This document shows positions 33,548-52,578 of a DNA stretch of 64,000 nt, one piece after another. This DNA is from Eledone cirrhosa (taxonomy: Eukaryota). The DNA lies in assembly GCA_964016885.1 (NCBI GenBank), contig OZ024740.1:184884001-184948000 (forward strand), read 5' to 3'. Every line of letters starts with the position of its first letter. Positions within the stretch are counted from its first letter, which is position 1. The notes beneath the pieces are model-generated. The model ran no database searches, had not been told where the DNA came from, and saw nothing but the letters and a program-made list of their open reading frames with translations. Made by a program: the position numbers and the translations under genes.

Positions 33548-33588
<41 letters not shown>

Positions 33589-33751
33589 TTATATATATAT
33601 ATACTTATATATATTAGAAAGTGAGGTTTTTTTTACAAAATGAAAAATAACCGAGGTGTCCTACACGAGTGGAAGTATAAAGAGAAAGGGATGAAATCGA
33701 AAATGCAACTGAAGTCTTATTTTTTTTTTAAATATATATATTTATTTGGTT

Positions 33752-33789
33752 CCTTTACCGGTTTCGCAGTTCTTCTGCTTTTCAAAAGG
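33752..33789 (-). ncRNA. Minimal type I hammerhead ribozyme, U3-A8 core variant
   Basis: Minus strand CCTT-TTGAAAA-GCAG(AAGAA)CTGC-GAAA-CCGG-TA-AAGG. Stems I and II perfect, palindromic stem III ACCGGT, GUA site. Confidence 0.75.
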
Positions 33790-34335
33790 TGAGTTGAGAT
33801 GGAGGGTCTGTGGTTTTTCTCACTTCTTATATATATATATATTTATATATATATATACTTATATATATATACACTTATATATATATACTTATATATATAT
33901 ATACTTATATATATATATACTTATATATATATATACACTTATATATATACACTTATATATATATACACTTATATATATATACACTTATATATATATATAC
34001 TTATATATATATATACTTATATATATATATACTTAATTATATATATAGGTATATACTTATATATATATACATATATACTTATATCATTATCATCATCATC
34101 AAAATTTAACGTCCGTTATATATATATAGATATATACATATAAATATAGATATATATACTTATATATATATATATATATATATACTTATATACATATATA
34201 CATATATATATATATACATATATATATATACATATATATACATATATATATATACATATATACATATATATACATATATATATATATACATATATATACA
34301 TATATATATATATACATATATATACATATATATAT

Positions 34336-34807
34336 ACCTCTCCAAGACAATGTCACTGGACCGAGACCTTTGGCGGTACTCAGTAACAGAGAAGACCCGC
34401 CTTACCTAAATATATAGTAAAACGTACTCCAGCCAGTAGGCATCTCTAACAAAATACACCCCGTCCCACCACCACCACCCCCACCCCATCCACACCACCC
34501 CGTTCTATGTAAAGTTATGTTGGTGCCGCGCCATCCAGGCCGAAAAAAATGAGATCGTGTAGGTGTCACGACAAAAAAACACACAGTCCACGCTGTAATG
34601 TGGCCGTGTAGGCAACACGGTAAAAACCTCCCAGACCCACACTGTAAATGTGGTTGGTGTTAGGAAGGGCATCCAACTGTAGAAAACCTGCCAGACAGTC
34701 CTATGCGAGCAAGACAATCACTCTTGCCTCAAGTGGGACTACCCCCGTCCAAACCCATGCAAGCGTGGAACACGGACGTTAAACGTTGATGATGATGATG
34801 ATGATGA
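34336..34807 (+). mobile_element. RTE family B 3' fragment
   Basis: Reverse complement of 11445-11914. Confidence 0.95.
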
Positions 34808-39689: not shown

Positions 39690-41268
39690 TTTGTTTTTTT
39701 TATGACCATGCTGTAAAATGGAGGGGTAGAGAGGGCCCTTGAGTCTAGTAAAACATCCTCTCTAGTGCTAGTGGCACAAATAAAAGTACCCAGTCCATGC
39801 TGTAAAGTGGCGCTGGTGTTAGGAAGGGCATACAACCAGTGTATCAATGACAAAACGCTTATCAGCACAGCAACAAATAGGAACAACAACAAAATATGAA
39901 GACGTCGCATCTCAGAGTTGCAACACTTAATGTTGGCACTCTTGGAGGTAGATCTGCTGAAATAGCGGAGATGCTGGAGAGAAGGCAGGTGGATGTGTGC
40001 TGCGTGCAAGAGGTGAGATGGAGAGGTACCTCTGCGAGACTAGTTGTAGCTATAAGCTATTCTGGGTAGGTAAGGATGATGGGTTAGGGGGAGTAGGCAT
40101 TTTCCTGGCTGAGAAATGGATCAATAAGACAATAGAAGTAGTTCGAGTTAGTAATCGAATAATTAAGCTTAGATTAGTTGTAGGTAGGAGACTACTGACA
40201 ATCATCTCGGCCTATGCTCCCCAAGTAGGCCTAGGCAAAGATGAGAAAGACTGCTTTTATGAGCAACTTTTGCAAACAACCGCAATGACAGAGGACGGAG
40301 ACATCGTTATGCTAGCAGGAGACTTCAATGGTCATGTTGGACAGCTCCAGGATGGTAACACTGGGGTACATGGTGGGCACGGTTACGGTTCAAGAAATGA
40401 AGGAGTGAGACTTCTTGAATTTTGTGATGCAGGTACATTGACTATTTGCAACACAAACTTCCAGAAACCTGCCAATCACCTAATAACCTACAAATCTGGT
40501 GAGCACATAAGCCAGATTGACTTTTTACTAGTTAGGCAGTGGGACAGGCAGATAGTGTCTAATACCAAGGCATACCCTGGGGAAGAATGTACTCCACAGC
40601 ATAGGTTAGTTGTTAGTGATATCTCAGTAAGCAAGAGATGGTATGAGACATATAGGAAGGTGTGGAGAAGAAAGGTCTGGAAGCTAAAAGACCTTTCACT
40701 AAAATACAAATTTAGGAAAGCCTTTCAAGATGTATATGACGAAAAAGAAGACGATTTAGAGACGTATGACATAGATAATAACTGGAATTTCTTACGTGAC
40801 AACTTGCTGCAGGCTACTGATGAAACTTGTGGCTGGAGCAGAGCTCCAATCAGACAGAGAGTGACCTGGTGGTGGAACAGCACAGTAGATAAGGCTATTA
40901 GAGACAAAAGACTAGCATGGAAGGCTTGGAAAAAGGGTGGGAGTAGGGAAGAATATACAGCCACTAAGAGAGAAGCTAGACGTCAGGTGTACTTAGCACG
41001 CAGGGAGGCAGAGAGTAGGAGGTTTGCCAATGTTCTGCGACGGGAAGATCAGAGGCGTGCGGTGTTTCACATTGCAAGGCAGTGTGTCAATGCAAATCAA
41101 GATGTTGTTGGAGATAAATGTGTCCGGGATGATGCCGGTGTACTTAGTTTCACGAATGATCAGAAAAAGGAGGCCTGGAAATGTCATTATGAGAGACTGA
41201 TGAATGTGGAGAACAAATGGGAGAGAGAGAAATTACCCTTGGTAGATCCGACAGAGGGACCAGCTATT
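39690..41268 (+). mobile_element. RTE family A 5' portion (leader, AP endonuclease, linker), 3'-truncated
   Basis: ATG at 39896 gives MKTSHLRVATLNVGT..VQEVRW; frameshift near 40045; then SAYAPQ, AGDFNGH and QIDF. Homology to the 44591 copy stops at 41268. 5' boundary approximate. Confidence 0.9.
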
Positions 41269-41513
41269 TTTGGATTAACAAAGGCAGAAAGAATTCTACC
41301 CAATAGAGTCTTCTTCAAAATGGTAGGCATTAAGAAAGGCATCCTTTCATCCACTGAACTTTATGAAAAAACTTGAAAAATGAAAATAAAAATAAACTAT
41401 AGCTTTGTAGAATTAGCTTTTAATGAATTCCCTTTTCTATCAACCAATGACCTACACCCACCCCACTCCCCACCCTCTCCTACCACTTGTAGAGACCTAT
41501 AAATACCATACTT

Positions 41514-43949: not shown

Positions 43950-44230
43950 TGGGATCCCAAAAGTCAGCTCAAAAGTGACACAGAGGAAACTGAGGTTGGC
44001 TGGACATGCTCACCGACATCCAGAGTTGACATTGCACTCAGTTCTCCTTTGGGAGCCCCTATATGGACACATTGAAGAGGAAGATCAAGGTTAACATATG
44101 TTGATGCCCTCAGGACAGACACTGGTCTGTTGGAGATGCAGGATATGGCAACGATAATGAGGGACAGAGACCGCTGGAGAGAACTCGTCCATGGATCTCG
44201 GTAATTTTACCCGCCTTAGATAGATAGATA
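43950..44230 (+). mobile_element. 3' end of RTE-like LINE family C with (TAGA)n tail
   Basis: GIPKVSSKVTQRKLRLAGHAHRHPE..LLWEP.. frameshift ..RGRSRLTYVDALRTDTG..RDRDRWR. Confidence 0.8.
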
Positions 44231-44272
44231 TCATATATATATATATATATATCACATATATATATATATATA

Positions 44273-44592
44273 TCTATAGAAATAGTGGACAGCAGTGGGG
44301 GAGGGTGCTCTGAAAGTACAGTAGCTAGTGTCAGAACTGGATGGAAAAAGTTCAGAGAGCTTATACCACTATTAGCCGCTAAAGGGTTCTCACTAAAAAT
44401 GAAAGGCAGGTTGTATGATGCCTGCATACGAACAGCAATGTTGCATGGCAGTGAGACCTGGGCATTGTGTGCAGAGGATATACACAGACTAGAGAGAAAC
44501 AAAGCTTGCATGCTCCGCTGGATGTGTAATAGTAATATACGTGAACGGCAAAGCATAAACGAACTAAGGAAAAAATTAGAAATAAGAGGGAT
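44273..44592 (+). mobile_element. Internal RTE family B fragment fused to family A
   Basis: Reverse complement of ~12084-12430 with a 27-bp deletion. Confidence 0.92.
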
Positions 44593-47353
44593 GCTAGCAG
44601 GAGACTTCAATGGTCATGTTGGACAGCTCCAGGATGGTTACACTGGGGTACATGGTGGGCATGGTTACGGTTCAAGAAATGAAGAAGGAGTGAGACTTCT
44701 TGAATTTTGTGATGCAAGTACATTGACTATTTGCAACACAAACTTCCAGAAACCTGCCAATCACCTAATAACCTACAAATCTGGTGAGCACATAAGCCAG
44801 ATTGACTTCCTGCTAGTTAGGCAGCGGGACAGGCAGATAGTGTCTAATACCAAGGCATACCCTGGGGAAGAATGTACCCCACAGCATAGGTTAGTTGTTA
44901 GTGATATCTCAGTAAGCAAGAGATGGAATGAGCCATATAGGAAGGTGTGGAGAAGAAAGGTCTGGAAGCTAAAAGACCTTTCACTAAAATTCAAATTTAG
45001 GAAAGCCCATCAAGATGTATATGACGAAAAAGAAGACGATTTAGAGACGTATGACATAGATAATAACTGGAAGTTCTTACGTGACAACTTGCTGAAGGCT
45101 ACTGATGAAACTTGTGGCTGGAGCAGAGCCCCAACCAGACAGAGAGTGACCTGGTGGTGGAACAGCAGTGTAGATAAGGCTATTAGAGACAAAAGACTAG
45201 CATGGAAGGCTTGGAATAAGGCTGGGAGTAGGGAAGAATATACAGCCACTAAGAGAGAAGCTAGACGTCAGGTGTACTTAGCACGCAGGGAGGCAGAGAG
45301 TAGGAGGTTTGCCAATGTTCTGCGACGGGAAGATCAGAGGCGTGCGGTGTTCCACATTGCAAGGCAGTGTGTCAATGCAAATCAGGATGTTGTTGGTGAT
45401 AAATGTGTCCGGGATGATGCCGGTGTACTTAGTGTCACGAATGACCAGAAAAAGGAGGCCTGGAAATGCCATTATGAGAGACTGATGAATGTGGAGAACG
45501 AATGGGAGAGAGAGAAATTACCCTTGGTAGATCCGACAGAGGGACCAGCTATTGAGATTGACGAATATAGGGTCCAAGAGGCGATTAGGGAAATGAAAAA
45601 TGGTAAGGCGGCCGGACCATCGGGAATAGTTGCTGAGATGCTGAAGGCATCAGGGGACGTAGGCACTAAACTGGTTGCACGCATAATCAATCAGGCTATA
45701 TATGGTGGTGTCATACCCAAAGACTGGTGCAGCAGTATTCTCATAAATTGCTACAAAGGTAAAGGGGATGCTTTGGAGAGGAGCAATTATAGGGGTATAA
45801 AACTGATAGATCAGGTTATGAAAGTGGCAGAAAGGATTTTAGCACAACTAATTAGAGAAAGGGTCAAACTAGATGAGATGCAGTTTGGTTTTGTGCCTGG
45901 GAAGAGTACAACAGATGCCCTCTTCTTGGTGAGACAAATGCAAGAGAGGTTCTTAGAGAAGAATAAGCCACTATACTTGGCCTTTGTTGACCTAGAGAAG
46001 GCCTTTGATAGGGTACCCCGATCTGTCATCTGGTGGTCCCTAAGGAAGCTGGGTGTTGAGGAATGGCTTGTAAGGACAGTGCAAACTTTGTACAGAGGTA
46101 CTCTCAGTAAAGTCAGGGTAGGAATGGAGTTTAGTGAGGAATTCCAGATACAAGTAGGAGTACATCAGGGTTCGGTCCTCAGCCCGCTCTTGTTCATTAT
46201 AGTCCTCCAAGCCATAACAGAGGAGTTTAAGACTGGCTGTCCATGGGAACTTCTCTATGCTGACGATCTGGCTCTTATGGCAGAATCAGTAGAGGAGCTA
46301 GAGAATAAATTCCGGCTATGGAAACAGCAGTTGGAAGCAAGAGGACTGAGAGTAAATCTAGCTAAGACAAAAGTGTTGATGAGTAGAAAAGAGGACAAAA
46401 CCCTGATTCCGTCAGGGAAATGGCCATGTTCGATATGCAGAAAAGGAACTGGCATAAATTCTATAAAATGCACACAATGTAGGTCCTGGGTACACAAGAG
46501 ATGTAGCGGGATAGCAGGCAAACTAACAGGTAGGGAGAAATATGTATGCAGTAGATGTACAGGGAAATTAGACAGTAGAAGTCGCACTGATAGACACATT
46601 TTTCAAATGCGAGAGGGCGCTATAGAAGTGGTGGATAGCTTCCGGTACCTAGGAGATCAGATTAGCATGGGAGGAGGGTGTTCCGAGGCCATAGTATCTA
46701 GAATAAGGACGGGTTGGAAGAAGTTTAGGGAGCTGCTTCCTCTGTTGACGAAGAAGGGTTTCTCCCTGCGTACGAAAGGCCGGTTGTATGATGCCTGTGT
46801 GAGGAGCGCGATGCTGCATGGTAGTGAGACATGGGCAGCTACCGCAGAAGATATGCGACGGCTGGAGAGAAATGAGGCAAGCATGCTCCGTTGGATGTGC
46901 AGTGTAAATGTGCGTGAACGACCCAGCATAAATGTGTTGAGAGAGAAACTGTGTCTGAGAGGGATAGAATGTAGTGTACGGGAGAGGAGACTGAGGTGGT
47001 ATGGACATGTGATGCGCATGGAGGATGACCGATGGGTGAAGAAGTGCCAGGAAATGCCAGTTGAAGGAAGACGTAGTAGAGGTAGACCACGAAAAACATG
47101 GGCGGAGGTGGTGAGAACAGACCTCAGATCATTGAAGCTCACGGTGGAGATGACGAAGGACCGTGACGAGTGGAGAGATGCTGTGCTGAATAAGACCCGT
47201 CCCACCCTTGCAAGTAAAATGATGATGATGATGATGATGATATATATATTCATATATATATATATATATATTCATATATATATATATATATATTCACATA
47301 TATATATATATTCACATATATATATATATATATATTCACATATATATATATAA
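44285..47353 (+). CDS. Chimeric open frame: family B C-terminal piece plus family A partial EN/RT, running into the tail
   Basis: 1022-codon ORF with GTG start; probably not translated as such. Confidence 0.5.
44591..47240 (+). mobile_element. RTE family A, 5'-truncated within the endonuclease; uninterrupted RT
   Basis: AGDFNGH..NYRGIKL..QFGF..DLEKAFD..QGSVLSP..YADD..LRWYGHV; (TGA)n tail; 16-bp deletion just before the tail. Confidence 0.95.
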
Positions 47354-51315: not shown

Positions 51316-51994
51316 GTTATATTTGGGGAGGGTCATATTTGCGTAATATTGCCAGAATTAATAACAGAACACACTCACTGTTTGGTTGGTTTTCGCTTCT
51401 CGCTGTCTTTTATATATATATATCTGCGATCTAACTTACTCGGTCCTCAATGTTGCCATTGACTGACCGGCGGTCAAAAATAATACAGATACAATATAGA
51501 CAAACACATATATATATAGTTTACATAATTTACATAAATCTTTCGTTGCACATCTGCAACATCGTCAGTGGTGTTATATTCATTGTTCCTCCTGTTGTGT
51601 TGTATGTCTACGCCATTTTTTTTGTTCAGTCTGTCTATATATTTATTTATTTATAAATTTATTATAAATAAATATATAGACAGACTGAACAAAAAAAATG
51701 GCGTAGACATACAACACAACAGGAGGAACAATGAATATAACACCACTGACGATGTTGCAGATGTGCAACGAAAGATTTATGTAAATTATGTAAACTATAT
51801 ATATATGTGTTTGTCTATATTGTATCTGTATTATTTTTGACCGCCGGTCAGTCAATGGCAACATTGAGGACCGAGTAAGTTAGATCGCAGATATATATAT
51901 ATAAAAGACAGCGAGAAGCGAAAACCAACCAAACAGTGAGTGTGTTCTGTTATTAATTCTGGCAATATTACGCAAATATGACCCTCCCCAAATA

Positions 51995-52482: not shown

Positions 52483-52507
52483 CACATATACTTTCACATC
52501 TGCTTAT

Positions 52508-52553
<46 letters not shown>

Positions 52554-52578
52554 ATAAGCAGATGTGAAAGTATATGTG

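What the first reader, a model, noticed from the sequence alone, without database searches (positions are those of the whole stretch)
33615..33829. 210-bp island with a well-formed minimal hammerhead showing U3-A8 compensation
The core reads UUGAAAA instead of CUGANGA. Both partners of the tertiary C3-G8 Watson-Crick pair are changed to U3-A8, which argues for selection rather than decay. Stems I and II are perfect, stem III is the ACCGGT palindrome, and AATAAA follows within 10 nt of the site. The island ends resemble short inverted repeats (agaaagtgag / ctcacttct), and it is embedded in one TA satellite.
Basis: partly seen in the sequence, partly recalled or inferred. Interest (0 to 1): 0.75.

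Follow-up and report, generated by a model that had tools for sequence, protein, structure and literature searches.

The report
Penelope retroelement end with variant hammerhead
This is the cut-off end of a Penelope-type jumping gene with thousands of near-identical copies in the genome, and it carries a predicted self-cutting RNA whose U-A core swap is real and shared by the whole family but already published, so the finding is largely ordinary.

Summary
The hammerhead is there as described (minus strand, U3 at 33785, A8 at 33780, 4-bp stems I and II, ACCGGU palindrome). The island is a solo pseudo-LTR plus tail of a young, 5.07-kb Penelope-like retroelement (RT, CX4CxxC linker, GIY-YIG; Neptune/Nematis type) that targets (TA)n. 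U3-A8 is the family state: 6,263 of 6,288 exact motif copies, none C3-G8. Three other families in this genome keep U3-A8 while their stems covary. That swap in Penelope hammerheads was published in 2014, and this scan met it before on other DNA. The 'inverted ends' are not terminal repeats, and AATAAA has no support as a poly(A) signal. Copy ends add mechanism: 3' ends fall at two fixed sites 61 nt apart, 58 of 120 arms begin about 70 nt upstream of the cut site (likely the RNA's 5' end), and 102 of 120 run through the cut site. A sister family of about 10,000 copies carries C at core position 13. Cleavage is therefore likely slow or dispensable. Cleavage itself was not tested. Verdict: new member of a known kind.

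The parts
33615..33823 (-). Solo pseudo-LTR plus tail of a Neptune/Nematis-type Penelope-like retroelement (island positions 7-215, counting from 33829 on the minus strand)
   Evidence: 40 of 40 scored genome hits full length at 95-100%; same sequence flanks an RT + GIY-YIG gene in L083 and L070
33752..33789 (-). Minimal type I hammerhead motif
   Evidence: sequence, descriptor scan and shuffles
33779..33785 (-). Core U3-U4-G5-A6-A7-A8-A9 (U3 = 33785, A8 = 33780)
   Evidence: 6,263 of 6,288 exact motif copies U3-A8
33786..33789 (-). Stem I 5' strand; pairs with 33755-33752 (4 bp; 3 bp plus a mismatch in a second subfamily)
33766..33778 (-). Stem II (4 bp) and 5-nt loop
   Evidence: formed in every minus-strand fold of the 40-100-nt pieces; covaries across four families
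33757..33762 (-). Palindromic stem III, predicted to pair between two RNA copies
   Evidence: dimer model -21.1 kcal/mol against -22.5 for the best dimer fold; monomer target fold has probability 0.023
33755..33756 (-). Predicted cleavage site after GUA (A17 = 33756)
   Evidence: position by hammerhead numbering; cleavage not tested
33741..33746 (-). AATAAA; no support as a poly(A) signal
   Evidence: absent at this place in three sister families; 116 of 120 arms end at the two fixed sites 65 and 126 nt beyond it
33615..33675 (-). 61-nt optional tail between the short 3' end (33676) and the long 3' end (33615)
   Evidence: 69 of 120 arms end at the long site, 47 at the short site
33824..33827 (-). 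Four junction bases of this copy that create the look of an inverted repeat
   Evidence: not in the parent element; 5' junctions differ between copies
33551..33614 (.). (TA)n target array, left
33826..34337 (.). TA-derived 16-bp minisatellite, right

Best explanation
The island is a solo pseudo-LTR with tail of a young Penelope-like retroelement inserted in a TA microsatellite, likely made when the element's reverse transcriptase primed near the start of an uncut transcript and copied only about 210 bases to the RNA's 5' end. Shown: the parent is a 5.07-kb unit (pLTR, ORF1, overlapping RT-linker-GIY-YIG ORF, 1.3-kb 3' region, pLTR); arms end at two fixed 3' sites; two-armed insertions pair a short with a long end; half of all arms start at one spot about 70 nt upstream of the cut site. 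Inferred: the endonuclease nicks (TA)n on both strands, each nick primes cDNA at one of the two sites, and the 5' hotspot is the transcription start. The hammerhead is predicted to cleave only as a dimer through its ACCGGU palindrome, likely slowly and with protein help; U3-A8 would keep the tertiary 3-8 pair and was inherited from the ancestor of several families in this genome.
For: Parent element; Pfam RVT_1 E 2e-7 and GIY-YIG E 1.6e-6 on the 590-aa frame of L061. Copy number: 12,331 exact matches to a 32-nt probe. Ends in a position-ordered sample: 69 long, 47 short, 4 other of 120 arms; 58 of 120 start at positions 0-12; 39 of 42 head-to-head pairs are long+short; TA repeats follow 104 of 116 fixed ends; 102 of 120 arms span the cut site; 13 of 36 unpaired arms are long-ended and start at the hotspot, as the window's copy does. 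No comparable hotspot at the second initiator-like site (216 matches, many of them small indels). U3-A8 counts; stem covariation. Literature: pLTRs of about 200 bp with inverted arm and tail (PMC3846280), two internal RT start sites that define the tail and a protein-assisted hammerhead not needed for insertion in vitro (PMC11167929), U3-A8 and dimer-only low activity (PMC4209133).
Against: No RNA data: transcription start and cleavage are inferred from DNA copy ends only. The 5' hotspot could be a strong RT stop instead of an RNA end. Clade placement rests on domain order and the linker motif, with no tree against named Neptune or Nematis sequences. Only a weak excess of arms starts at the cut site (about 53 per position at 74-75 against about 18-23 on either side, tallied by eye from the first 100 rows and confounded by A-rich microhomology). 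No fully intact parent copy was among those examined (L083 and L070 carry stops or frameshifts).
Confidence: 0.85

Rival explanations
1. The hammerhead is a catalytically idle relic: U3-A8 was fixed in an AT-rich founder and the fold now serves, at most, for RNA dimerisation or protein binding.
For: Sister family B has C13 in 98 of the first 100 of 9,979 copies yet is at least as abundant; A13 is part of the consensus core whose mutation usually costs most activity (PMC3088659). Stem I is 3 bp or broken in a second subfamily and in families C and D. 102 of 120 arms span the cut site. Cleavage was dispensable for insertion in vitro in another PLE (PMC11167929).
Against: This family keeps all consensus core positions with the 3-8 pair intact in 99.6% of exact motif copies; stem II covaries while the core and palindrome stay across four families; 3 of 120 arms start exactly at position 75 and there is a weak excess at 74-75.
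Confidence: 0.3
2. The element RNA is cut in both pLTRs, ligated to a 5.07-kb circle and reverse transcribed across the sealed site, so spanning the site does not mean 'uncut'.
For: Proposed for PLEs in PMC4209133; would explain long copies and partial tandems such as L083.
Against: A circle has no end at positions 0-12, where 58 of 120 arms stop, so it cannot explain the window's class of copy; it can hold only for the 33 of 120 arms that reach further upstream.
Confidence: 0.15
3. The 210-bp unit is an independent non-autonomous element (retrozyme or SINE-like) with its own master copy.
For: Very many copies have nearly the same length; retrozymes are described as PLE pLTR derivatives (bioRxiv 2026.07.22.740005, abstract and introduction).
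Against: The unit is 92-98% identical to the pLTRs of ORF-bearing copies; 5' junctions vary base by base; no head-to-tail monomer arrays were seen among the 120 arms (one search lists only inverted pairs and unpaired arms).
Confidence: 0.05
4. A miniature inverted-repeat DNA transposon with TA target.
For: Ends look alike over 9-10 bases in this copy; TA on both sides.
Against: Only one end is fixed; the other varies and continues into an RT gene in other copies; 4 of the 9 matching bases are copy-specific.
Confidence: 0.01

Closest known systems
Minimal U3-A8 hammerheads in pLTRs of Schistosoma mansoni Cercyon PLEs (Cervera and de la Pena 2014, PMC4209133; parts 1-2 of 4 read, supplements not read)
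   Same: Type I minimal motif in a PLE pLTR, short 4-5 bp helix I, palindromic helix III, U3-A8 instead of C3-G8, mostly single dispersed motifs or close opposite-strand pairs; predicted dimer requirement.
   Different: Here helix II is 4 bp with no extra base between positions 9 and 10.1, helix III is a 6-nt palindrome, and the motif is highly uniform (6,263 near-identical copies against about 1,300 heterogeneous hits there).
Neptune/Nematis-type EN+ Penelope-like elements (Craig et al. 2021, PMC8557442; introduction and passages read)
   Same: RT followed by CX2-5CxxC linker and C-terminal GIY-YIG with two cysteines between the motifs, separate ORF1 overlapping by a frameshift, (TA)n target, inverted 5'-truncated arms, optional tail.
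   Different: Tail is 61 nt instead of the 30-40 nt quoted; 1.3-kb repeat-rich 3' region; clade not confirmed by a tree.
Poseidon element of Anolis carolinensis, PAc (Frangieh et al. 2024, PMC11167929; parts 1-2 of 4 read)
   Same: Two internal RT start sites that define the tail, AT-rich target, hammerhead near the ORF start, unprocessed RNA as the main template.
   Different: PAc has C3-G8, its start sites lie inside the ORF, and it belongs to the Penelope/Poseidon clade; here both sites lie upstream of the ORF1 start codon.
Natural U3-A8 hammerhead core variants (Perreault et al. 2011, PMC3088659; section 8 and passages read)
   Same: C3-G8 to U3-A8 covariation seen in nature and stated to be active in vitro.
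   Different: That section does not deal with Penelope elements or dimer dependence.

Membership tests
EN+ Penelope-like element (Neptune/Nematis type) | RT plus C-terminal GIY-YIG endonuclease in the parent element | tested here: met
   Pfam RVT_1 and GIY-YIG above their cut-offs on L061; same ORF between two pLTRs in L083
EN+ Penelope-like element (Neptune/Nematis type) | CX2-5CxxC linker between RT and EN, two cysteines between GIY and YIG motifs | tested here: met
   C-x4-C-xx-C linker and C-xx-C inside the EN motif in the translations
EN+ Penelope-like element (Neptune/Nematis type) | pLTRs in direct or inverted arrangement with optional tail | tested here: met
   direct in L083 and L070; 42 inverted pairs, two fixed 3' ends
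EN+ Penelope-like element (Neptune/Nematis type) | (TA)n target preference | tested here: met
   TA repeats follow 104 of 116 fixed ends
EN+ Penelope-like element (Neptune/Nematis type) | RT phylogeny groups with named Neptune or Nematis elements | not tested
   homologs carry no clade names; no reference set was held
Minimal type I hammerhead ribozyme of PLEs | Core consensus with a Watson-Crick 3-8 pair, G12 A13 A14 A15.1, U16.1 H17 | tested here: met
   U3-A8 variant
Minimal type I hammerhead ribozyme of PLEs | Helices I and II formed, G10.1-C11.1, palindromic helix III | tested here: met
   pair table; folds
Minimal type I hammerhead ribozyme of PLEs | Match to an Rfam hammerhead model | tested here: not met
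   no hammerhead among 5 hits at E up to 10; this tests the Rfam models, not the published minimal descriptor
Minimal type I hammerhead ribozyme of PLEs | Site-specific self-cleavage as a dimer | not testable with these tools
   only an energy model and a weak, confounded excess of copy starts at the site
MITE / TIR DNA transposon | Both ends fixed and inverted | tested here: not met
   5' ends vary, 3' ends fall at two sites
Non-LTR retrozyme | Tandem non-coding monomers without a coding parent | tested here: not met
   unit is the pLTR of an RT-encoding element; no monomer arrays in the sample

The most novel reading that the evidence does not exclude
In this genome a whole lineage of Penelope elements (over 19,000 exact motif copies in four families) keeps a U3-A8 hammerhead fold and the ACCGGU palindrome while giving up catalysis: one family of about 10,000 copies has lost A13, others have lost most of stem I, and half of all cDNAs run through the site to a fixed RNA 5' end, like retroviral strong-stop DNA. 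The motif would then work as an RNA dimerisation or packaging signal that brings two templates to the two nicks of a target, which would also explain why two-armed insertions pair a short with a long end.
Probability: 0.2. Interest if true: 0.6.

Novelty: new member of a known kind. Interest (0 to 1): 0.22.

Why it matters
As found, it adds one more young Penelope family with an already published hammerhead variant. Its use is as test material: what hammerheads do in Penelope elements is an open question (PMC8557442, PMC11167929), and this genome offers four related families with the same U3-A8 core, one of them with C13, plus thousands of young copies whose ends record template ends. That makes a direct comparison of cleavage rate against transposition success possible.

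Tried and rejected
Rfam on the whole window gave only low-complexity miRNA-type matches among the 150 rows shown of 284, and on the island no hammerhead. Fold z-scores gave no support by themselves. Terminal inverted repeats rejected. AATAAA as poly(A) signal unsupported. A second promoter candidate (TATA-like run at positions 90-98 with an initiator-like motif near 120) gives no hotspot of copy starts (216 matches). Canonical CUGANGA with this palindrome: 2 matches genome-wide against 140 for the reversed control pattern, so uninformative beyond showing rarity. Copy starts at the cut site as a fossil of cleavage: only a 2-3 fold excess, tallied by eye on the first 100 of 445 and of 289 matches, with rows that were indels or local duplications of full copies set aside (about 30 including starts beyond position 82, 21); judged inconclusive. 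No RNA holder listed. Three contig runs of one sample were laid on L074: depth drops about fourfold upstream of the hotspot and TA loose ends sit at the short 3' end and the hotspot, but the sample may be the assembly's own and the runs are not on record as RNA, so this is not counted as independent support. No other part of the parent element lies in the window. Lunse et al. 2017 on PLE hammerhead variants is not held; only its title was seen. Searches for a published A13C variant found nothing, which is weak because that paper and the supplements of PMC4209133 were not seen. Target-site duplication cannot be read inside TA repeats.

Full report
Observation. A descriptor that lets positions 3 and 8 covary finds this single hit in both strands of the window and none in 100 block shuffles. 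Folding alone does not single it out (z -0.3 to -1.3) and Rfam has no matching hammerhead hit. Below, island positions count from 33829 on the minus strand; the predicted cut is between 74 and 75.

It is a repeat end. A genome search gave 235 candidates; all 40 scored were full length at 95-100% identity. In all 30 loci fetched the 3' end is the same and is followed by TA repeats, while 5' junctions differ. Following shared upstream DNA led to RT-encoding copies. L083 holds the whole unit of 5,073 bp: pLTR, ORF1 starting 30 nt after the island's 3' end, an overlapping second ORF entered at a U UUU UUA heptamer (a -1 frameshift is inferred; the heptamer type is recalled), a 1.3-kb repeat-rich 3' region, and a second pLTR. 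The second ORF has RVT_1 (E 2e-7) and GIY-YIG (E 1.6e-6) domains, a C-x4-C-xx-C linker and two cysteines inside the nuclease motif. By the introduction of PMC8557442 that is a Neptune- or Nematis-type Penelope-like element. Its 734 database homologs include an Octopus bimaculoides protein at 73% and bivalve proteins at 46-49%. A 32-nt probe has 12,331 exact matches. The window holds no other part of the parent.

U3-A8 is the family state. With positions 3, 7 and 8 free, the motif has 6,288 exact matches. Seventeen lack U3 (9 C, 5 G, 3 A; all with A8) and 8 have U3 without A8 (2 G), leaving 6,263 U3-A8 and no C3-G8. This pattern sees only the subfamily with the 4-bp stem I; a second subfamily with 3 bp plus a mismatch was 27 against 48 exact cases in the sample and also has U3-A8. 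Family B (9,979 matches) and families C and D (3,032 matches together) share U3-A8 and the palindrome, with compensatory changes in stem II and in part of stem I; B and C are linked by tblastn to related nuclease ORFs at 48-59% identity, D was not linked. Two further motifs with UUGAUAA and one with CUGAUGA turned up in flanking DNA. The swap is therefore old and inherited, one event for the related families, and not decay of this copy. It is also known: about 1,300 U3-A8 motifs in Schistosoma Cercyon PLEs (PMC4209133; the only library hit for 'U3-A8') and natural U3-A8 cores stated to be active in vitro (PMC3088659).

What the copy ends show. I took the first 100 probe matches by position on contig C1 and all arms in their loci, 120 arms after removing duplicates. 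3' ends: 69 at position 215, 47 at 154, 4 elsewhere; TA repeats follow 104 of the 116 fixed ends. This is the optional PLE tail, here 61 nt, which in PAc marks two internal RT start sites (PMC11167929). Of 42 head-to-head pairs 39 join a long with a short end, 2 a long with an irregular end, 1 two long ends; I ran this test on a lead from earlier scan notes. 5' ends: 58 of 120 at positions 0-12, 33 further upstream, 9 at 13-67, 2 at 68-74, 3 at exactly 75, 15 beyond. Unpaired arms show the same hotspot (18 of 36), and 13 of 36 are long-ended hotspot copies like the window's. A second initiator-like site near position 120 is no hotspot. The simplest reading is that transcription starts at about position 2-3, and RT primed 150 or 210 nt downstream runs off the RNA's end. 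This is inference; no RNA run was available.

Does it cut? The monomer rarely adopts the active layout (probability 0.023), while the double-hammerhead dimer lies within 1.4 kcal/mol of the best dimer fold, in line with dimer-only, low activity of PLE hammerheads (PMC4209133; review passage in PMC6765202). Against an essential role: 102 of 120 arms span the cut site, family B has C13 in 98 of its first 100 listed copies, and stem I is broken in families C and D. For some cleavage: the core is complete in this family, and starts at 74-75 are about 53 per position against about 23 at 76-82 and about 18 at 62-72 (by-eye tallies of the first 100 rows, scaled to 445 and 289 matches). Position 77 is nearly as high (about 40) and A-rich flanks inflate 74-75, so this is inconclusive.

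The left 'inverted repeat' is the element's fixed 3' end; the right one has 5 element bases and 4 junction bases, so there are no terminal inverted repeats. AATAAA is present but absent from the sister families at that place, and copies do not end near it. Insertion in a TA array is confirmed and is the family's target preference.

Papers seen: PMC4209133 parts 1-2 of 4; PMC11167929 parts 1-2 of 4; PMC8557442 introduction and passages; PMC3088659 section 8 and passages; PMC6765202, PMC3846280, PMC6155905 passages; bioRxiv 2026.07.22.740005 part 1 of 5; Lunse et al. 2017 title only (not held). No supplements were read; they may already contain an A13C variant.

Verdict. An ordinary solo pLTR of a young Penelope-like family with a real but published hammerhead variant: new member of a known kind, interest 0.22. 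The residual interest lies in the sister family with C13 and in the copy-end statistics, which make the role of PLE hammerheads testable.

Noticed in passing
L070:7590-7640 (+), L084, L195-L200; 9,979 matches genome-wide: Sister Penelope family B has U3-A8 and C instead of A at core position 13 in 98 of the first 100 listed copies; no published A13C found in two searches.
   Followed up: partly
L201-L212; 3,032 matches: Two more TA-targeting families (C, D) with U3-A8, the same palindrome and weak stem I; B and C also show a short and a long 3' end.
   Followed up: partly
window 33661-33671 and tails of families B and C (L196, L204, L210): A GTGT...ACAC motif that could form a small hairpin recurs in the tail of three families; predicted as a hairpin only in family C. 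It may mark the RT binding or start region.
   Followed up: partly
window 33719-33740: Across copies the boundary between the T run and the A run after the TATA-like stretch shifts while the total length stays nearly constant, as expected from template switching in a quasi-palindrome.
   Followed up: no
L083 minus strand, about 3525-3600; same in L070: ORF1/ORF2 overlap with a U UUU UUA heptamer followed by a possible hairpin; -1 frameshift inferred.
   Followed up: partly
L035, L058, L062, L052: Other hammerhead motifs in flanking DNA: two kinds with UUGAUAA (U3-A8) and longer palindromes, one canonical CUGAUGA.
   Followed up: no
window 51540-51774: Near-perfect inverted repeat of over 110 bp per arm with an AT-rich centre; similar sequence lies beside L007 and L008, so likely a head-to-head insertion of another repeat family.
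   Followed up: no
window 52490-52571: Second short perfect inverted repeat around a TA run.
   Followed up: no
window 11840-14269 (-), 39961-41376 (+), 44228-47353 (+): Long open frames of 381, 427, 471 and 1041 aa outside the TA arrays, likely other retroelements; not scanned.
   Followed up: no
L070:5335-7800: A copy of sister family B lies head to head with a near-complete copy of this family in one TA array.
   Followed up: partly
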